DNA of 64,000 nucleotides from Candidatus Poribacteria bacterium (GCA_965215265.1 OZ244048.1:4320001-4384000), one strand, 5' to 3'. Numbered from the stretch's first letter, positions 43,240 to 52,483 are shown. Notes: generated by a model not told the origin, from the letters alone. Numbers and translations: made by a program.

Positions 43240-45180
43240 TTAAAATAGAAAGCGATACATCGGCTTATCAAGCGCAACCGCCAAGAGGCTCCAGAAAGCG
43301 CCGATCACAAATTCACCGAGTACAATGCCGAGAAAGAACGGAATCGCTTTACGGTGTAAACGGAGTCCACCGTACTTGAGTACGAACCATTTAAGGAGCC
43401 AGCCGACAAAGATGGAGCCTACCATCGGATTGATTGCCCAACTGCCTGAGATGGCATAGCCGACGGGATGTAGGTTCCACCAGAGAAACCGCATACGCAT
43501 TGCAGCAAGCAGTAGCGTTAACCCGAATCCGAATGTTGCGAAGCCGATGGCGGGGACATCCGGGGGTGCCGCGTACGTGAGCCATGTTTCTAATCGATTA
43601 AAGGATTCTCGTCCGAATCCGGCGAAACCGCCTTCGGCGTAATACATAGAAAGATATGCCCAAAAGGAACCTAGCGCGCCTAAGGCGGAAGCCAGCATCA
43701 TGAGGAGTGCGAACCGCTTTAATGGGATATTCGCGCCCTCTGCGAGTTTGAATCCTTCTAGTTGATGCGGCATCGCATGCGAACGGTGTGCCCTATTCAG
43801 ACAATAGAGATAGGCGAAGCCGGTTAAGTTTACCGCTCCAAGGCGGCGGATCCCGAATAAGCGCGGTAACATTTCATCTGGGCCGATAAAGTGGAGGTCA
43901 TGTACCGGAGATCCGAGCTCTGCCCGCAGCCGTGCGATCGCAATCGCGATGGCGAACCAGATTAGAAAATAGAGCACAATCACCCAAAACGTCATACCCA
44001 TTTTGAGACAGAAAGCGACGATGAACGCTGCCCCGCCAAGGAGGGCGACGAGTGTGACGCGGTGGGAAACCGGTTCGTCTGGGTGCGGGGACACTACCTG
44101 GCGCACGACCTGCATTAGGTAACGCCGGCTCATCCAGATGGCCAAAACGCAAAGGCCCAAGTAAGCACCATGGGACTGTTCGGCTTCATAAGGAAATCGG
44201 GGTAAACCCCGCCACCCGGCTATCACACCCAGCAGCCGTTCTGCACGCCAAATTAACCAGAATGCCCAACACGAGAAGGAGAGATCAAGTGGAATAAAGA
44301 ACGAAAGCCCCACACCGAAAGGGAACACTCCGAGAGGACTCCACCCGATGCCGTTCCACGGTCTCTCCGTAAAAATCTGCCGCAAATCGTATAGCTTGCC
44401 ACCGAGACTTGGGACAACCGGGAACAGAAAGTTTAGCCCGTTGATGATGTCAATAGAGATGCCAATTGTGAATCCTACCCACATCCACGGTGAACGGAAA
44501 AATCTCGCACGAGACGCGGTCATTTCAAAGGGGAGTTGGATGATCGGGTAACTGAGACGCTCTGACTCTACCCACTGCTTCCGGAAAATTAGACTCAAGC
44601 AGAGCATCACGAGATGAACTGCGACAATGAAGAGCGTCCACCAAAAGATCGCGGGCAACCAGGCAATTAAGTTCGGCTGTTCATAAATGCTTGAAAACCC
44701 GTGATAATAGCCTTCAAGCGCACGTCTATTGCTCACCGCTAACCATTGCGGAATGTGCAGATGAAATAGGTTTATCCAATCATTTTCCGGGGTAGCGAAC
44801 CAGTGCGCGTGCCCGATAATCGGCATTAAAACCAAAAATCTATCGACACCGGCGAGCCCTGCACCGACTGAAATGCAGGTGTAGATGACGAGCAATTCAG
44901 CGCGGTTGAAGGTGAGATGATGATGCAACCGGCGAAAAAGCAGCCCAAAACCGAATAGAATTAAAATCGTGATAACGGCGTTGTAAAATAGGGAGACTTG
45001 CGTTGGGCTTCCACCACCACGGATAATCGAGGCAGATACCCACCAACAGTTCAACGGCACTAAGAGACAGATAAGGAGGATCGCGAATGGCCGAATGCGT
45101 AGGATTTTTCTTTGAACCTTGTTCACCTTCTTTCCAAAGAATAACGAACGTATTCTATCACATTTTTGATCCTGAGACAA
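43240..45180 (-). CDS. Polytopic membrane protein, DUF6785/DUF6784-like
   Basis: FATPENDW, RKQWVESERLSYPIIQLP, WWNLHPVG, GIVLGE; start uncertain. Confidence 0.75.
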   Translation of the reverse strand: MSQDQKCDRIRSLFFGKKVNKVQRKILRIRPFAILLICLLVPLNCWWVSASIIRGGGSPTQVSLFYNAVITILILFGFGLLFRRLHHHLTFNRAELLVIYTCISVGAGLAGVDRFLVLMPIIGHAHWFATPENDWINLFHLHIPQWLAVSNRRALEGYYHGFSSIYEQPNLIAWLPAIFWWTLFIVAVHLVMLCLSLIFRKQWVESERLSYPIIQLPFEMTASRARFFRSPWMWVGFTIGISIDIINGLNFLFPVVPSLGGKLYDLRQIFTERPWNGIGWSPLGVFPFGVGLSFFIPLDLSFSCWAFWLIWRAERLLGVIAGWRGLPRFPYEAEQSHGAYLGLCVLAIWMSRRYLMQVVRQVVSPHPDEPVSHRVTLVALLGGAAFIVAFCLKMGMTFWVIVLYFLIWFAIAIAIARLRAELGSPVHDLHFIGPDEMLPRLFGIRRLGAVNLTGFAYLYCLNRAHRSHAMPHQLEGFKLAEGANIPLKRFALLMMLASALGALGSFWAYLSMYYAEGGFAGFGRESFNRLETWLTYAAPPDVPAIGFATFGFGLTLLLAAMRMRFLWWNLHPVGYAISGSWAINPMVGSIFVGWLLKWFVLKYGGLRLHRKAIPFFLGIVLGEFVIGAFWSLLAVALDKPMYRFLF

Positions 45181-45248
45181 CAGTTTTTTTTGTCTCTCAA
45201 TTCCATCTGATAAGGAGAGTTGCGTTGATACAATCTAAAATGCTTTTT

Positions 45249-46078
45249 TTTCGTGAAAACGGCTTATCTGGCGACGGCTTGTGTTTTGCTCCAAAGTCTC
45301 CAATTCACGAAAAGTTTCACGAGAGGTTTTCATGAGCGTAGACTACCACTGCGTTCATACAATACAAAACCCATTTCTTTCGTGAAACGGCTCATATCGC
45401 AACTTCCTTTGTTTTGCTCCAAAGTCTCCAATTCACGAAAAGTTTCACGAGGGATTTTCGTGAGCGTAGACTACCACTGCGTTCAGAAGATTCGACATGC
45501 GTTTTTTCGTGAAACAGGCTTATCTGGCAGTTTCCTCTGTTTTGGTTGGTGGTATGCAATTCACGAAAAGTTTCACGAGGGATTTTCGTGAGCGTAGACT
45601 ACCACTGCGTTCAGAAGATTCGACATGCGTTTTTTCGTGAAACAGGCTTATCTGGTAGTTTCCTCTGTTTTGGTTGGTGGTATGCAATTCACGAAAAGTT
45701 TCACGAGAGGTTTTCGTGAGCGTAGACTACCACTGCGTTCATAAAATCCAAAGCCGTTTCTTTCGTGAAAACGACTTATCTGGCAGCTTCAGATGTTTTG
45801 CTCCAGAGTCTCCAATTCACGAAAAGTTTCACGAGAGGTTTTCATGAGCGTAGACTACCACTGCGTTCATACGATACAGAATCCGTTCCTTTCGTGAAAC
45901 GGCTCATATCGCAACTTCCTTTGTTTTGCTCCAGAGTCTCCAATTCACGAAAAGTTTCACGAGAGGTTTTCGTGAGCGTAGACTACCACTGCGTTCATAA
46001 ATACAAAGCCGTTTCTTTCGTGAAAACGGGTTATCTGGCAGCTGCCTCTGTTTGACTACAAACTATCCAATTCACGAA
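45249..46078. repeat. Tandem array of 128-bp non-coding units (six complete cores plus a partial seventh)
   Basis: CAATTCACGAAAAGTTTCACGAG..TTTTC(G/A)TGAGCGTAGACTACCACTGCGTTCA at 45301, 45429, 45557, 45685, 45813 and 45941, partial at 46068; isolated fragment at ~46236-46290. Confidence 0.95.
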
Positions 46079-46324
46079 TGGAGGCGGTTATCGCCGAAGC
46101 AGCTTCGGCCCCAAAGTCGTCGCCACTTCGCGCAGACGCGTTTGAAATAAATCTTGATATCCTTATCTATCTGCTTAGGCTCTTAACTTCTCATGATAAA
46201 GTATAGCAGCGTCTCTGCTTTTTTGTCAACGTCTTTTTTCGTGAAAACGGCTCATATCGTAACTTCAGATGTTTGGCTCCAAACCGCAATTCTGGTGGGT
46301 TGCTATAATATAGAGCGTGGTGCT

Positions 46325-49300
46325 TCATACTGTCATCCCTGCGTCGCGATACGTCTGTTCTATGAGTTGAATTTCTTGCGGCGTTAACTCATATAACTGA
46401 TAGACTAAGGTATCTATCTCTTTCTCAAGTGCGTTCACGGCATCGCCGTTGGGTTCTGCCAATATCTGCGCGACGAGGCGTGAGAGTGCGGCTTTCTGTG
46501 CTTCTGTTCTATTGGCTATCGGGACATGTCGCATGTATTGAGCAATGAAACGCAAGCCACCACCTATCCACGGATCGTTAAGGCTCTGAAACTTATATTT
46601 GGCATACCAATCAAAAAGTTGGCTGTTCAAAATTGCAAGCAAAGAGAGATCCTCAGTAGGTAAGATGTAGGTAGTCTGTAAGGAAAAAGCGTTTGCGGTA
46701 TCATAACACGCACGCATAGATGAGCTAATATCCGGATAGATGATCTTCGGCTTTTCGAACGCGTCGTAATAGGCGCACGAACGCAACTCCCAATAGAATT
46801 TTCCCTGGTTATCACGGGGTAAAAGCCGCTCTTTATAGCGTATTAGATGGCGATGGATTGCTGGATAGGTTTTTTCAAAAATCTGTTCGGCTTCAGATTC
46901 GCTTGCTGCGTTTGACCAGGGCCACTGTTTATTGGCACTGCTGGCTATTGCTATCAAGTGCTCGTTTGCTGATACCGCTTTCCATTTTTTGAGATTCCGC
47001 CCTCGCAGTAAAGGTTTTATGAGTTGTGCGCTTTTGGCATCCTCTGCTATTAGCTGCTGACAGAGAGATTCATCTATGATAAATGCTTCATTGTATCCGG
47101 TGAAGATACCAATATAAAGTTGACCTTGTATTGATTCGCTGAATGATGTTCCCGTGTGTTGCAATTTCTGTAGTAGGGCGAGTGTTTCTGTGCGTGCTAA
47201 CGTCCATTCTTCTGAAGACAAATAGGCGAGCTGCATCGGGAATGCCTGCGTTTGAAATGCTTTCCGGACGTTAAATTCCTTTGAAACATGCCTTAGGGTT
47301 GTCGCATGGAGGGTGTGGTTTGGAGTAGGTGGCGACTTTTGAACGAGGAGAATGGATGCATTTACTGCTGCGTCAAAGACGGAAAGGCTGCCGAAATCCA
47401 AAATTGTTTTTAGTGCCATCTCAGCGGTTAGGAATTGGCGTAGTTTTTTTCCGTAGCCGCTGCGCATAAACTTGTTTGTGCAGATGTAGGAGAGTAAACC
47501 ACCTTCTCGTAGTAGTTCGGCTCCGCGTTTGTAGAAGTAGACGCTGATGTCTGCCATGCCCGTAAAGAAATCACCAAATTGTGTTTTCAAGGTAGGTTTG
47601 AGATGGTGAATTTTGTGGTGTCGGATGTAGGGTGGATTGCCGATGACGATGTGAAAGCCGTGGTGGATGCCGAACATCCATGCGGGTTCAAAGAAATCGG
47701 CGACGGCGTTCTGGTTGTATGGATTCCAGTCTGCGATTTTCTGTGCCTCTTCTACGCTGGCTGTTAGCTTTTGCTGACGAATTGCATACGCTTTCTCGAG
47801 TTTTTCTTGGAGTTGGTTGCGCGCCTCCTTTTTTGGCAGCTGCGCAATCTGTTGGGATATCCGGCTTTGCTCCTGCACCGTCCACTGTTCCGACTGTGTT
47901 CTTAGCGCGAGTGCCAATTTTTCACGGCACTTTTCCTCTTTTCGCATCGCCTCAAGTTTTTGCCGACGGGTGCTGCCGGAGAAGTGTTTGGCGCGGATGA
48001 CTTCAATGTCGTTGCGGAGTTGTTGGATGGTGTCTGTTTCCAGCAAGCGCTGAAAATCCGTTTCTTTTGCCCCCTTCAAGCCGATGAGGGTGTTTGCGGC
48101 AACGAACTTCGTCTCCAAGTTGGGGAGGGGTCTGATGCCGTAGTTGTCGTCAGGGTTCTGGTTGGGTATCTGCTCGATGATGAGAGAGATGAAAAAACGG
48201 AGTTTGGCTATTGTGACGGCGATGGGTTGTATATCTATGCCGTAGAGGGAGTTTTGGATGAGGTAGAGTTTGCGTCCGTAGTCGTTGTAGTGATTCGCCT
48301 TGGAGAAAACTGCCTCAATTGCCTGCTTTGCGCTTTCTCGGCTTTGGACGTCTGGTATGTTCTCAGCTTGTTGAAGTTGTCGCTGTTTCCAGTTTTGATT
48401 CTGCGGATCGAGTTTTCGGAGGATGAGCACGAGTTTATTGAGGATGCCCATAGCGAAAGCCCCGGAGCCGACGGCTGGATCTATGACTTTGAGTTCGTTT
48501 ATCGCCTGAATGAGGGGTTGAATTTCCTCTGGATGAATGAGGTGATGTGCGTCTTCATCAATGTTGCCTTGGGAATCGTAAGCGAGGAGGTCTTCGCGGA
48601 GGCGTTCCTCAAGGTATTGTGTGTCGCCGTCGTAGGGTTTGACGTTTTGGATGAGATAGGCGCTGAGTGCCTCGTCTACCATGTGTTCAACGATTTGGCG
48701 GGGTGTGTAGTAAGAGCCTGTGGCTTTGCGTGCGGTGGATTGCGTTTCAGGGTTATAGGTGCCGAGCAGGTTTTCAAACACTTGTCCGAGGAGCTCTGGA
48801 TCGAGCGCGACTTCTTGTTCAATGGGTGTGTTTTCCTCGACAGTAAACTTATAGTGAGCGAAGAGAGGAAAGAGTCCGTGTGTTTCGTCAAAGAAGAGTT
48901 TTGCGGGGACGTGTAATTTTTGCCGAACCGTTTTGTTATCAGAGAAACAGTCTATTCGGACACCGCCGTCGCCGGTTGCCTCAAAGGTATCCAAGCAGTC
49001 AAATAAGCCGCCGTTGACAAATGGGACGTGCTTTAGGTGTTGAAGGAAGGTTTGGGGTGATTGCAGCAAGTCAGCATAGCGATATTTGCTTGAATCGCGA
49101 TGGCTCCTGTTATCGTGTGTGCTAAAGGTGCGTTGATTTATGGGTGTGTTGAGAGTAGCAAAGAATAGATTTTGGAGGATGGCTTGGTAGTAGTCGGATG
49201 TGTCGGGGTTAAAGTTTTTGAGGTGTGCGTGCAGGCTGTTTTCTGTCGTGGCGTTCGGCAGAAGACTTAACGTCTGTAAGGGGGGGGGTATTCAGACTGT

Positions 49301-50232
49301 TGGTTGTTTTGCAGGCTTACCTGCCTATTCTGTTCAGATTCTTCAGACAGCTCGTTGTTTTGCGTGCCCGCCTGCTCTTTCTGCTCGGAATCTTCAAAAA
49401 GCCACTCGGGGACAAGCCCTTTTTCTTTCAAGAACCATATAAAGAGCAGCCGCGTGATGAGCCGGATGATGTGTGCTTCGGAACCCAACGGATTCAGCTC
49501 GGCTGTCGGGAACTTCGCTTCCCTCACTGCCCACTCGAACCAGTTGAACAACCTTCCGTAGAACTGCTTGTTGAGCGCTTCGGTGTTGAGTTTCGCTAGC
49601 CAGGCGGATAGCAGCCCCTCGAAGTTTTTCTGTTTCTTATTTGCGTCAATCCACTTCACGCATTCTGTTAGTGACAGCTCAGAGAGGATATCCAGATGCG
49701 CACGGTGCGGCGCCTCAAGACGAATATCCTTGATGAGTGTCACTTGCTGGAGAACATCGCGCCCTGGGTGGTGCGCGTGTGGACGGCGTCCCACAAAACC
49801 GAGGGTTAGCCGGGTTGACACACGAAATAACACCACCGTCGGAACAATCAGACGCTTGTTGATTTCTCGCGTCAATTCTGCGTACGCACCGCGGGAGTAG
49901 GTTTTCTCTTTTAGTTCTACCGCGAAGAAAAAGAAACTTTCCGCATCGTTTCCTTCAAAGAGTTCTAACCGCTGTTGCGTTTCGCCATCTATTTCTGCGT
50001 CTGTGAGTTGGAAGATGAAGTGTATCGAGGCTGCGTGGTTTCGGAGGGCTTGTTCTGTTTGGGTGTTTCGGTTGAATGCGGGGAAAGTCTCTATAAAGTC
50101 GCCGGCTGTTCCAGAGAATGCTTCTGTCAAATCGCTGCGGTAGCCGAGCGTGGCGAGCAGGTTTTTCGCAGTTTGTAAAAAGGGGCCAGTGCATATTGCA
50201 GCGAGAGCCTCTCTGATGTGTTCTTTGTTCAT
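46325..50232 (-). pseudogene. Type IIG (Eco57I-like) restriction-modification enzyme split by a frameshift at a C9 tract (possibly phase-variable)
   Basis: IRLITRLLFIWFLKEK in the 5' ORF; SDYYQAILQNLFFATLN, VPFVNGGLF, TGSYYTP, DPAVGSGAF, VIGNPPY and a TaqI_C-like end in the shifted frame; G9 at 49280-49288. Confidence 0.85.
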
Positions 50233-50709
50233 GCGTTTGCTCCTCTGGGGCCATGCGGTTGAGGGACGAGGCTGGGCTTTGTGAGTTTATTGTGCATGCG
50301 GTTGTCTCCTCTGATAAGCAGGTTTTCAACATTGTCAGGCAGATTTTTATGGTGTTCACATTAATATATCATATTTTAAAAAAAATTGTAAGAGAAATGT
50401 GGGGCATCTGATTTAGCGGCACTTTTTTTGTGAGTTGCGGGTGGGGGCGATGGCGGAGTCTGTGTATGAGAAAAGCTATGAGTCCGCGCGGCGCAAGAGA
50501 GCTGCGAAAAAGGCGACGCGAACCCTCGGACAACGAGGAGCCGGAGGTCGCAGCAACAGAAACACAAAAAACTTCAGTTTCATCTCTTCCAAGCCGTTCA
50601 AGCGCTAAAAAAGGCGAATTTGGTCACGACATGTAAAAATTCATAGAAATGCAACAATTCTGTCAAAAAAGTAAAAAAGTTTCGGTTTAGGTTAAACTAA
50701 ACATATTTG

Positions 50710-50737
50710 TTGACAAATTCACGCGAAGCCGTATAAT
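50710..50737 (+). promoter_or_regulatory. Consensus sigma70 promoter
   Basis: TTGACA-16 bp-TATAAT upstream of ORF 50870. Confidence 0.7.
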
Positions 50738-50869
50738 TAAAGTTACCGACCAAGGGTGTCAGTTTCTTTTTGGGCGAGGGCCGATATTCTTTTTATTCAA
50801 ACACCGGAACGGAGATTTTTGTCGTGTCCTGACGGCAGGCTCCCGATCATCACAAAGGTCTCAAAAACG

Positions 50870-52483
50870 ATGCCTCTGAGCAATAGAAAAAAAATTGTTA
50901 TAATCAGTCTAATCGCATTTATTGGAATTATTATTTTGCTGTCTATTATTTATCATCGTACGTCGCTTTGGAAACCGGAGCAGCAGCTTATCACGCTACT
51001 CCCAGAAAATCCTGTGGGTTATGTGAGTTTCAAAGAAGTTGAAGGGTTCGTCCAAACGTTTACCGGCAGCGAATTCGGGCAGCAGATGTCAGAAATTCCG
51101 CTTATTGCTAAAATTAAGACGCAACTTTGGTGGAGGCAGCTCGTCGATCAGAAGCAGCTATGGGAATATGAGATGGGTGGCAAGCTCGACCTCCAAGCAG
51201 TGAAGGCATATTTCGGCGAAGAAACCATTCTCGCGCTGTACCGACGCGACGAAGAAATTACATTCCTCTTGATTAGCGCGCTCGGCGCGACGGAGAAATT
51301 GGCTATTGAAGCGATGACGGCGACTGACGCGATTAACCCGAAATACAGACGCACCCGAACCGAACACGCGGGTTTCACAATTAATACAATTACGGGGTAC
51401 CCGCGTGATTTTAGCTACGCCTTTATCGGAAAAATCGGCATTTTGAGCCTCAGTTACCCCTTGCTCACGGAGGTGCTTGATATCTACATGGGCAAAAAAC
51501 AGCATTTCCTTCAGCAGCATCCGATGCAGGAAACTATTCAGAGAGACTATGGTCGTGACAAGAGTACTGTTTACATGGATATTCCACGCCTACTCACCTC
51601 ATTTGTCAAGACGAACGAACGTTTGCTGCATTTTGTTGAACAAGTTCATCCGCTATTGGGTAAAACGGAATTCTGGACTTTGGGGAACCGGTATGAGGAT
51701 GGCATAATTCTGTCACGTCATCGTGTTCGCAATCAGACAAAGGAAGGCGCAAATGTCAGTACGTTCCCTCAGCTGCATCCGGGTATCAGTGCACTTCTCC
51801 CGGAAAGAACTGCCTTGGTCACCGCTGTTCCACTCTCATCTCAGATAGAGACGTTTGTTCCCAATCTTGATTTATCCGAGTACTTAGGTGCGGAATTGGT
51901 GCTCGGGTTAATCGCCGCGGAAGCAGAGCAGCTGTCCGTTGTGCCTTCGGTCATTCTGCTGGCTCCTGTTAAAGCCGCGGGGGGGTTGAGAGCCGAATTG
52001 GAAAACCTGAAGGCGCGAAAAATCTCTATTGCGGGGCAACCGCTTCAATTCCTCGCGCCGCAGGACTACCGGGGTACGCGCCTCCATCCGTTCCAACTGC
52101 GCTTTAATTTTTTGTTGGCACTCACAGGAGGCTATGCTGTTGTCAAGGATTACCTTGTGTTCAGCACCACGCTCGCTAGTTTGAAATCTGTGGTGGATGC
52201 GAGCTTAGCGCCAACTCCGACATTAACCGATGCGGTGCTTAACACGAAGGCCGGTTCGATGCAGACTTTTGTTCAGCCGCATCTCTTTGTTCCGGAATTG
52301 AAGCGATTTTTGGTGATGGTTACGTTGCTGACCTCGCTATCCGGTCAGGATTCGGATGCTGAACTGATTGAGCAGTTCCAAGAGAATCTGTTTCCGCTGG
52401 AGGCGCTCGGTCCAATTTCTGCTGAGGTGCGGCGCACGGAGGACGGTGTGGATATCGAATTTCGGATTGTTTTGGAAGAGTAA
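50870..52483 (+). CDS. Membrane-anchored hypothetical protein (DUF3352-like)
   Basis: N-terminal TM after MPLSNRKK, LLPENP, SYAFIG, YAVVKDYLVFS; family call tentative. Confidence 0.6.
   Translation: MPLSNRKKIVIISLIAFIGIIILLSIIYHRTSLWKPEQQLITLLPENPVGYVSFKEVEGFVQTFTGSEFGQQMSEIPLIAKIKTQLWWRQLVDQKQLWEYEMGGKLDLQAVKAYFGEETILALYRRDEEITFLLISALGATEKLAIEAMTATDAINPKYRRTRTEHAGFTINTITGYPRDFSYAFIGKIGILSLSYPLLTEVLDIYMGKKQHFLQQHPMQETIQRDYGRDKSTVYMDIPRLLTSFVKTNERLLHFVEQVHPLLGKTEFWTLGNRYEDGIILSRHRVRNQTKEGANVSTFPQLHPGISALLPERTALVTAVPLSSQIETFVPNLDLSEYLGAELVLGLIAAEAEQLSVVPSVILLAPVKAAGGLRAELENLKARKISIAGQPLQFLAPQDYRGTRLHPFQLRFNFLLALTGGYAVVKDYLVFSTTLASLKSVVDASLAPTPTLTDAVLNTKAGSMQTFVQPHLFVPELKRFLVMVTLLTSLSGQDSDAELIEQFQENLFPLEALGPISAEVRRTEDGVDIEFRIVLEE

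What the first reader, a model, noticed from the sequence alone, without database searches (positions are those of the whole stretch)
45249..46290. 128-bp tandem array of structured units beside the type IIG RM gene
Seen: the period is exactly 128 bp five times (127 for the last), so it is not a coding repeat. Each unit has a near-invariant ~57-bp core, a ~20-bp variable segment, a fixed TTTCGTGAAA and a ~42-bp variable segment. TTTCGTGAA pairs with TTCACGAAA around the long variable segment. The core holds two more stems, TCACGAG/TTCGTGA and GAGCGTAG/CTGCGTTC, whose mismatches are G-U compatible on the + strand. Variable segments recur out of order (units 2 and 6 alike, 3 and 4 alike). There are up to four TCACGA/TCGTGA motifs per unit. 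Inference: either a processed multi-unit ncRNA (compare type III antitoxin repeats or other guide arrays) or a protein-binding/decoy array. The variable parts are homologous to each other, so this is not a CRISPR.
Basis: partly seen in the sequence, partly recalled or inferred. Interest (0 to 1): 0.7.

Follow-up and report, generated by a model that had tools for sequence, protein, structure and literature searches.

The report
Tandemly amplified small interspersed repeat element
The 128-bp array is real, but each unit is an 88-bp inverted-repeat-bounded element that lies scattered through this and related genomes, here multiplied head-to-tail behind a multi-copy restriction-modification gene, so it is most likely an ordinary repeat family and not a guide or antitoxin RNA array.

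Summary
In detail: TRF finds window 45221-46078, period 128, 6.7 copies. The core is 97% identical between units, against about 70% for the variable parts.

Each unit is an 88/89-bp element bounded by TTCACGAAA...TTTCGTGAA, plus a ~40-bp linker. The unit family gives 35 hits at 13 loci in this genome. A covariance model found 67 solitary, dispersed 88-nt relatives in five genomes of a sister genus. Their ends are conserved and their interiors vary freely. In 26 of 29 of those loci the double-TTCACG end faces a neighbouring gene's start.

Tandem arrays were found only in this genome, always in the 3' flank of a ~4.3-kb segment present in six mosaic copies. That segment carries a type IIG RM gene split by a poly-C tract. 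In the window, the array arrived inside a 5.64-kb insertion that a same-genus genome lacks.

No family or feature that would make it something else was found:
- no Rfam family;
- no promoter-like site inside units;
- no covariation within the genome;
- no toxin among the four neighbouring proteins scanned;
- no Y1 transposase in the genome.

Best reading: a new BOX/BIME/MITE-like repeat family with a tandemly amplified module. Any function is probably in cis. Whether it is transcribed is untested.

The parts
45246..46078 (+). Tandem array: six full units of 127-128 bp, plus a seventh cut off after AATTCACGAA at 46078. Strand '+' is the orientation of the unit model, not a shown transcript.
   Evidence: TRF, the repeat finder, nhmmer with the unit HMM, unit listing.
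45302..45390 (+). First copy of the 88/89-bp inverted-repeat-bounded element inside a unit (AATTCACGAAAAG ... TTTCGTGAAA). It recurs every 128 bp, at 45430, 45558, 45686, 45814 and 45942. This is the part homologous to the dispersed family in the sister genus.
   Evidence: The terminal helix is paired in 98.5% of cells.
45391..45429 (+). Linkers occur in a few recurring types.
   Evidence: 73% mean identity.
45194..45245 (.). Native intergenic flank and left junction of the insertion. Window 45221-45243 resembles a unit tail (TGCGTTGATACAATCTAAAATGC) but aligns to the same-genus genome.
45245..50883 (.). 5.64-kb insertion relative to same-genus genome G001. It holds the array, the gene remnant, the RM gene, its promoter region and about 440 bp more.
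   Evidence: In G001 the orthologues of the two flanking genes lie 97 bp apart.
46079..46233 (-). Internally deleted remnant of a ~0.8-kb gene present in about 20 copies (257 aa, no Pfam or NCBIfam family). It carries a strong promoter-like site, TTGACA-18-TATACT, that points into the array on the minus strand.
   Evidence: Present in copies A, B, C and G, absent in D and E.
46234..46324 (+). Terminal diverged unit, which is the 3' flank of the RM gene. It starts like a unit (TTTTTTCGTGAAAACGGCTCATATCG) and then diverges. It contains the AT-rich palindrome CTATAATATAG.
   Evidence: Conserved at all six copies.
46325..49069 (-). 914-aa ORF: the methyltransferase and target-recognition part of a type IIG RM enzyme.
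   Evidence: Pfam Eco57I, TaqI_C, N6_Mtase. PADLOC REase_MTase_IIG at 5e-93, covering only profile positions 402-1245 of 1247.
49280..49288 (-). Homopolymer tract (G9 on the + strand, C9 on the gene strand) that separates the two ORFs of the RM gene. The gene would be in frame at C10 or C7.
49267..50232 (-). 321-aa ORF: the N-terminal part of the same RM gene.
   Evidence: Relatives have single ORFs of 1185-1248 aa.
43240..45180 (-). DUF6785/DUF6784 gene. Its start faces the left end of the array. It is native and not part of the insertion.
   Evidence: Pfam; 92% identical orthologue in G001.

Best explanation
The 128-bp unit is a composite. It consists of an 88/89-bp element closed by a 9-bp inverted repeat (TTCACGAAA ... 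TTTCGTGAA), plus a ~40-bp linker.

The 88-bp element belongs to a small interspersed repeat family of this bacterial family. By the titles of the RM gene's nearest relatives these are Poribacteria-like MAGs, which is an inference. In a sister genus the element occurs only as solitary dispersed copies. They are always about 88 nt long, with conserved ends and a freely varying interior. They lie in intergenic DNA, with the end that carries two direct TTCACG motifs facing the start of the adjacent gene.

In this genome one copy lay in the 3' flank of a type IIG RM gene. When that ~4.3-kb gene segment spread to six loci, the element went with it. Element plus linker were then multiplied head-to-tail to between 1 and 6.7 copies. 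The likely route is unequal recombination or slippage between the near-invariant cores (inferred).

Shown here: the composition of the unit, its dispersal, its link to the RM paralogues, and the insertion. Inferred: the conserved termini are the working part. They are either sites for a sequence-specific protein or a 9-10-bp terminal helix once transcribed. Any effect is therefore in cis on neighbouring genes (attenuation, insulation or transcript stability), as in BOX, BIME and Correia-type repeats. It is not a trans-acting guide or antitoxin RNA.
For: Dispersal in this genome. nhmmer gives 35 unit hits at 13 loci. Of these, 26 lie at the six RM copies (A 8, B 5, G 5, C 4, D 2, E 2) and 9 lie at seven other loci. 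All six full RM copies carry at least one unit at the same end.

Insertion. In G001 the two flanking genes are adjacent. Window 45245-50883 replaces about 55 bp there. The solitary unit at genome position 2669367 sits in a ~330-bp insertion, where G001 has 27 bp between the flanks.

Family beyond this genome:
- Model R1, built from the 89-nt module, hits 6 of 60 other same-family genomes full length, 5 of 27 in genus g5.
- Model R2 finds 67 dispersed matches in five g5 genomes: 11, 29, 16, 4 and 7.
- A 20-nt end motif occurs 25, 15 and 10 times in three of those genomes, against 0 for the reversed control. All but one listed place coincide with 88-nt elements.
- 44 elements from both genera align colinearly in 91 columns.
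- The terminal helix pairs in 98.5% of cells, G-C in g5 against A-U here at two pairs.

Orientation and gene context. The left-flanking ORF is on the opposite strand in 26 of the 29 g5 loci that have one, out of 30 examined. Right-flanking ORFs split 13 to 14. 24 of 26 left ORFs have Pfam hits, of unrelated functions.

Nothing else fits. No Rfam family matches. No promoter-like site lies inside units. ORFs across the array have no Pfam family.
Against: - The core is 97.4% identical between units at different loci, while the RM paralogues beside them differ at dS 0.07-0.25. This argues for constraint or very local gene conversion, more than a passive repeat needs.
- The strong orientation rule in the sister genus, and termini kept while interiors drift, also suggest a host function.
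- No cognate transposase was found, no target-site duplication was identified, and no Y1 transposase is in the genome. Mobility is therefore unproven.
- The + strand folds better than the - strand: -81 kcal/mol at z -2.9 against -53.4 at z -1.2 for two units. It is the more stable strand in 25 of 30 and 13 of 15 elements.
- No transcript data exist.
- The G-C to A-U changes amount to a single lineage split, so they cannot separate base pairing from co-evolving protein sites.
Confidence: 0.6

Rival explanations
1. The array is transcribed from the + strand as a multi-unit structured non-coding RNA. Each 88-nt module folds into a closed stem-loop, and the linkers are single-stranded variable parts. 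The transcript is processed into unit RNAs that act on the RM gene (antisense) or in trans.
For: - Two units on the + strand fold at -81 kcal/mol, z -2.9, with 0 of 200 shuffles as good. The - strand gives -53.4 kcal/mol, z -1.2, with 23 of 200.
- The extended inner hairpin is -19.7 kcal/mol on + and -6.6 on -, because of G-U pairs.
- The G to A variant in units 1 and 5 falls on a bulge of that model.
- In the two-genus alignment, pair 38/50 is U-G in 30 elements and C-G in 13. This suits only the + strand.
- In copy A a native promoter-like site (CTGATA-16-TACAAT, preceded by TG) points into the array.
Against: - No promoter-like site lies inside units, and the left flanks differ between copies.
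- There is no covariation within the genome.
- In the sister genus, z-scores are equal on both strands (-2.4 against -2.26) and the interior alone is not structured (-0.59 and -0.53). The asymmetry there is therefore compositional.
- No Rfam family matches.
- No terminator-like site lies on the + strand within units.
Confidence: 0.12
2. The array is a row of weak terminators or attenuators on the gene (minus) strand. It insulates the downstream gene from read-through out of the RM gene and out of the promoter carried by the inserted gene remnant.
For: - 11 terminator-like sites were found against 1.9 expected. 9 are on the minus strand, and 8 of those lie inside units.
- The remnant at 46079-46233 carries TTGACA-18-TATACT (11 of 12 matches) pointing into the array.
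- The four copies with the remnant (A, B, C, G) have 2 to 6.7 units. The two without it (D, E) have one.
- BIMEs are reported to act as transcriptional attenuators (PMC3049150, passages read).
Against: - The minus-strand hairpins are weak, -5.9 to -9.6 kcal/mol, against -21.8 for a native bidirectional terminator of this genome. Their U tracts are poor.
- The four remnant-bearing copies share ancestry, so the correlation counts as one event.
- In 12 of 29 sister-genus loci the element lies between divergent genes, where nothing needs terminating.
Confidence: 0.15
3. The conserved TTCACG-type motifs are binding sites for a sequence-specific protein. The array is then a multi-site platform beside the RM paralogues: a regulator, an architectural or centromere-like site, or an anchor for recombination.
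For: - Across two genera only the three motif copies are near-invariant, two direct at one end and one inverted at the other, while the interior varies.
- Units here carry a fourth copy.
- Placement next to gene starts depends on orientation.
- The RM paralogues are mosaics, with 100%-identical blocks shared between different pairs. Flanking homology may therefore matter.
Against: - The motif pairs do not occur outside unit loci in this genome. TTCACGA-N5-TTCACGA has 0 of 13 hits outside, and TTCACGA-N3-60-TCGTGAA has 0 of 22. No regulon is visible.
- No candidate protein is encoded in the repeated segment.
- In the sister genus the neighbouring genes are unrelated, and none of the 26 left neighbours examined is an RM gene.
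Confidence: 0.13

Closest known systems
BOX elements of Streptococcus pneumoniae (boxA-boxB(n)-boxC)
   Same: Both are small, modular intergenic repeats in which an internal module is repeated in tandem a variable number of times. Both are predicted to form stem-loops if transcribed. Both change copy number between loci. (PMC3049150, passages read.)
   Different: The unit here is 128 bp, an 88-bp element plus linker. There is no sequence relation to BOX. Tandem forms were found only behind one paralogous gene family. There are far fewer loci (13). No insertion sequence with like ends is known.
REP/BIME clusters of enterobacteria
   Same: Both have imperfect palindromes in alternating orientation, arranged in tandem mosaics in intergenic DNA, with reported attenuator effects (PMC3049150, passages read; other details recalled).
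   Different: No RAYT/Y1 transposase is in the genome. There are tens of copies, not hundreds. The palindromic motif is not dispersed on its own.
Correia/NEMIS-type MITEs of Neisseria
   Same: Both are about 100-bp elements with terminal inverted repeats in intergenic DNA close to genes. Correia elements have reported effects through promoters and RNase III cleavage when co-transcribed (PMC3049150, passages read; PMC2229807 and PMC10969869 seen as search listings only).
   Different: No target-site duplication and no transposase was identified here. The interiors of old copies drift while the ends are kept. Tandem amplification with a linker is not a Correia feature (recalled).
CRISPR arrays
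   Same: Both alternate conserved and variable segments with a fixed period.
   Different: The variable parts here are homologous to one another and fall into a few recurring types. The 'repeat' would be 88 bp. The same element occurs solitary and dispersed. No cas-like hit appeared among the four neighbours scanned.
Type III toxin-antitoxin repeat arrays (ToxI and relatives)
   Same: Both are tandem direct repeats of a potentially structured unit near a defence gene.
   Different: ToxI-type repeats are about 36 nt and lie directly upstream of a toxin endoribonuclease gene on the same strand (recalled). Here the units are 128 bp. No such toxin was found among the four neighbours scanned. The element is a dispersed repeat.

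Membership tests
CRISPR array | Unique, mutually unrelated spacers between identical repeats | tested here: not met
   The variable segments are 73% identical on average and recur as a few types across loci.
CRISPR array | Associated cas genes, or a leader | tested here: not met
   PADLOC and Pfam scans of the neighbours gave only type IIG RM, DUF6785 and housekeeping families. Only the window neighbours were scanned, not the whole genome.
Type III toxin-antitoxin (ToxIN-like) | Toxin endoribonuclease gene directly downstream of the repeats on the same strand | tested here: not met
   Downstream on the + strand is the antisense of the RM gene. Downstream on the - strand is a DUF6785 gene here, and different genes at the other five loci.
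Type III toxin-antitoxin (ToxIN-like) | Short repeat unit (tens of nt) processed into antitoxin RNAs | not testable with these tools
   The unit is 128 bp. Processing needs RNA data, and no RNA run holds the stretch.
REP/BIME | Cognate RAYT (Y1 transposase) in the genome | tested here: not met
   PF01797 gave 0 matches in the single-contig genome (95% complete). The control search hit 6 of 14 reference genomes.
REP/BIME | Short palindrome dispersed in high copy number | tested here: not met
   TCACGA-N3-12-TCGTGA has 18 hits, only 2 outside unit loci. There are 35 unit hits in all.
MITE | Terminal inverted repeats | tested here: met
   The 9-bp terminal complement is paired in 98.5% of cells over 44 elements from two genera.
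MITE | Small, non-coding, multi-copy and dispersed | tested here: met
   The elements are 88 nt. There are 13 loci here and 4-29 copies in five sister-genus genomes.
MITE | Target-site duplication, and an autonomous element with the same ends | tested here: inconclusive
   No duplication is evident at the two empty-site comparisons. End-motif occurrences coincide with 88-nt elements, so no longer element was seen. An empty-site search in the sister genus was not resolved.
BOX-like modular repeat | Composite element with an internal module in a variable tandem number | tested here: met
   There are 1 to 6.7 units at six loci, and mosaic contexts at the solitary loci.
Any Rfam RNA family | Match to a curated covariance model | tested here: not met
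   cmscan of 44000-47500 on both strands at E<=10 gave 5 weak hits. None overlaps the units.

The most novel reading that the evidence does not exclude
The 88-bp element is a host-kept, orientation-dependent cis module of this bacterial family, with conserved ends that face gene starts. In this genome its tandem arrays serve as the conserved downstream homology anchor for gene conversion among six phase-variable type IIG RM paralogues. That would be a cassette-like system for diversifying restriction specificity, comparable in logic to pilin cassette systems.
Probability: 0.12. Interest if true: 0.7.

Novelty: new member of a known kind. Interest (0 to 1): 0.35.

Why it matters
If the reading is right, the array is not a new RNA-guided or antitoxin system. 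It is an undescribed small repeat family of sponge-associated (Poribacteria-like) bacteria, caught in an unusual tandem form.

Its value is as a marker and possible substrate of genome plasticity. It travels with a six-copy, mosaic, homopolymer-switched type IIG RM gene family, and that family also marks a chromosomal rearrangement relative to the sister genome.

Two features are not expected of dead repeats. The sister-genus elements follow a strict orientation rule, and their ends are kept while their interiors drift. These are cheap to test with a reporter.

Tried and rejected
- **Rfam:** an E-value scan found nothing on the units.
- **BLAST of two units against relatives:** 0 of 40 relatives matched. 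The family later became visible only with a covariance model.
- **Exact-core scans:** Genome contigs gave 0 and viral contigs gave 0. Metagenome contigs gave 17 stretches, all matching only the seed (nhmmer covered at most 33 model positions, best E 5e-4), so these are chance.
- **Arrays behind RM relatives:** 9 relatives in other genomes were checked and none has an array. Two have coding TPR repeats downstream.
- **RNA evidence:** no RNA holder is listed.
- **Read laying on contigs of 4 runs from 4 studies:** contigs run from the left flank into unit 1 (to 45272-45292, 0-1 mismatches) and break there. The junction is therefore present in those runs, but copy number, strand and poly-C state cannot be read. 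A one-base deletion at 49280 in two runs cannot be told apart from the C8 paralogues.
- **TCACGA as an avoided RM target:** O/E is 1.06, so it is not avoided.
- **REP/RAYT:** no Y1 transposase.
- **parS-like reading of the half-sites:** only 6 scattered matches to the consensus at up to 2 mismatches, with no cluster. The consensus was recalled from memory.
- **Replichore bias:** the cumulative GC skew is too irregular to place an origin or terminus.
- **Coding potential of the array:** the 112-aa and 96-aa ORFs have no Pfam family.
- **First reading of the solitary loci:** I first read the unit as a 3'-UTR element of the gene on its right. The sister-genus data showed that the consistent neighbour is the gene start on the left.
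- **Empty sites in the sister genus:** intergenic DNA was too diverged for BLAST.

Full report
**1. The observation**

Tandem Repeats Finder reports a single array at 45221-46078, with period 128, 6.7 copies and 85% matches. The repeat finder puts the copies in register with spacings of 128 five times, then 127, then 221.

It has a near-invariant core (AATTCACGAAAAGTTTCACGAGRGRTTTTCGTGAGCGTAGACTACCACTGCGTTCA), a variable tail, a fixed TTTCGTGAAA and a long variable segment. Over 12 full units from four loci, mean pairwise identity is 97.4% in the core, 73% in the variable segment and 69% in the tail. Units 2 and 6, and units 3 and 4, are indeed alike.

Two corrections concern what counts as array:
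- Window 45221-45245 is native flank.
- Window 46079-46233 is an unrelated insertion.

**2. The array belongs to a multi-copy segment**

Searching the window's own genome (one contig, 4.83 Mb, 48% G+C) shows that window 46230 to about 50440 is present six times at 91-97% identity, plus one partial copy. Every full copy carries units at the same end: 6.7, about 3, about 2, 1, 1 and about 3.5. nhmmer with a unit profile finds 35 hits at 13 loci. 26 of them lie at the six copies and 9 lie at seven other loci.

The segment encodes a 321-aa and a 914-aa ORF on the minus strand. The larger is a type IIG enzyme by Pfam (Eco57I, TaqI_C) and PADLOC, but it covers only profile positions 402-1245. The two ORFs are halves of one gene split at a poly-C tract, C9 in three copies and C8 in three. 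C10 or C7 would be in frame. Relatives have single ORFs of 1185-1248 aa without such a tract.

The downstream frame evolves at dN/dS 0.18-0.32, so these are not dead genes. The copies are mosaics of one another.

**3. The array came in with an insertion**

In a genome of the same genus (G001), the orthologues of the DUF6785 gene (92% identical) and of the 575-aa gene at 50756 lie 97 bp apart. Window 45245-50883 (5.64 kb) replaces about 55 bp there.

The left junction falls exactly at a unit start. It abuts 23 native bases that resemble a unit tail.

G001 has three intact tandem copies of the RM gene, no unit and no array. A solitary unit at genome position 2669367 likewise sits in a ~330-bp insertion between convergent genes.

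**4. The unit is an old dispersed element plus a linker**

BLAST found the unit in none of 40 relatives, and exact-core scans of public collections found only chance seeds.

A covariance model of the 89-nt module from TTCACGAAAAG to TTTCGTGAA changed this. It gave full-length hits in 6 of 60 other genomes of the family, 5 of 27 in genus g5. A model rebuilt from those hits found 67 dispersed, solitary, 88-nt matches in five g5 genomes.

Their ends are conserved (TTCACGGAGG-CTTCACGGAG ... CTCCGTGAAA) and their interiors vary. The end motif occurs essentially only in such elements. A MAFFT alignment of 30 g5 elements and 14 elements from this genome is colinear in 91 columns.

Only in this genome was it found in tandem.

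**5. Structure and strand**

Across the two genera the terminal helix is paired in 98.5% of cells, with G-C changing to A-U at two pairs. No shuffle in 500 reaches the observed score. But this is one lineage split. It is equally expected of inverted binding sites that co-evolve with a protein.

The inner GAGCGTAG/CTGCGTTC stem is paired in 71.8% of cells.

The + strand folds better. In g5, however, the z-scores against shuffles are the same on both strands, and the interior alone is not structured. The asymmetry is therefore largely base composition.

No promoter-like site lies within units. Terminator-like sites are enriched on the minus strand (9 of 11, against 1.9 expected), but the hairpins are weak. 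No RNA run holds the region.

**6. Placement**

With the element written in the + orientation, the nearest left ORF is on the opposite strand in 26 of 29 g5 loci. One of the 30 loci had no left ORF. The right ORFs split 13 to 14. Co-directional '--' arrangements outnumber '++' by 12 to 1.

24 of 26 left ORFs are real genes by Pfam, and their functions are unrelated. Some loci are orthologous between genomes, so the count overstates independence.

The same arrangement holds in this genome at copy A (the DUF6785 start at 45180 faces the array). At ORF level it also holds at copies B, D and G and at four solitary loci. Two solitary loci do not follow it.

**7. Verdict**

The finding is a real and unusually tidy array.

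It works most like BOX, BIME or Correia-type repeats (PMC3049150, passages read). It meets none of the tested defining features of CRISPR, type III antitoxin arrays or REP/RAYT.

Three things remain unexplained:
- why the core and termini are so well kept;
- why placement is orientation-specific;
- which strand, if any, is transcribed.

A literature search for Poribacteria together with miniature inverted-repeat elements returned no paper. A search for Poribacteria, restriction-modification and repeats returned general sponge-symbiont genomics only, seen as listings.

Noticed in passing
window 46230-50440, and genome copies at 433031-437311, 1720340-1724512, 2335555-2339774, 3870257-3874474, 4197818-4202030: There are six dispersed copies of a type IIG RM gene, all split at the same poly-C tract (C8 or C9; in frame at C7 or C10). 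The copies are mosaic (100%-identical blocks shared between different pairs), with dN/dS of 0.18-0.32. This looks like a recombining, possibly phase-variable family of restriction specificities. Copy E has a different 3' (target-recognition) end.
   Followed up: partly
G001:C1:2307083-2317429 (locus L052): The same-genus genome has three intact tandem copies (1185, 1185 and 1200 aa) of the RM gene, with no poly-C tract and no 128-bp unit. In L013, L014 and L052 the gene is preceded by a conserved ORF of about 920-980 aa ending ...EFELVTWL.... The dispersed copies here lack it.
   Followed up: partly
genome 438098-441000 and 1724527-1727700, against G001 3950860-3960482: The array-side flank of RM copy B and the promoter-side flank of RM copy C lie about 2 kb apart in G001. 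This suggests a chromosomal rearrangement by recombination between RM copies.
   Followed up: no
window 46079-46233; full copy at genome 1733348-1734193: A ~0.8-kb unit is present about 20 times in the genome. It encodes a 257-aa protein with no Pfam or NCBIfam family and has its own strong promoter-like site. The window holds an internally deleted copy.
   Followed up: partly
genome 1719686-1719732, 2340033-2340126, 4202650-4202696, and about 20 other places: A ~45-bp dispersed repeat (…GTCACTTACCCCGATTTTTTTGAAGGTTTGTCGTGAAAGG…) lies left of the arrays of copies C, D and G. It contains one CGTGAAA motif like the element's end. A similar CACTTAC…GAAA stretch lies left of two sister-genus elements (L066, L067).
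   Followed up: no
window 50710-50737 (+): A near-consensus promoter-like site, TTGACA-16-TATAAT, lies inside the right end of the 5.64-kb insertion. It contains AATTCACGCGAAG, which matches the element's end motif at 11 of 13 positions. The transcript is unknown. It points towards the 575-aa gene.
   Followed up: no
whole genome: GRCGYC (GACGTC at O/E 0.05, GACGCC at 0.13, GGCGCC at 0.22) and CATATG (0.17) are strongly under-represented. This suggests active or past restriction systems with those targets.
   Followed up: no
G001, whole genome: The DUF6785/DUF6784 protein has about 18 paralogues in the same-genus genome (20 matches). One sister-genus 88-nt element (L092) also lies upstream of a DUF6785 gene.
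   Followed up: no
genome 1343923-1344103 and 2669259-2669450: Two solitary units share about 110 bp of further upstream sequence. At four loci (1344111, 2996892, 2997269, 4438345) the unit is cut after TTTTCGTGAG and continues into a shared stretch, TTCACACATCGTGCACAGACATCAC. The family is therefore mosaic with other repeats.
   Followed up: no
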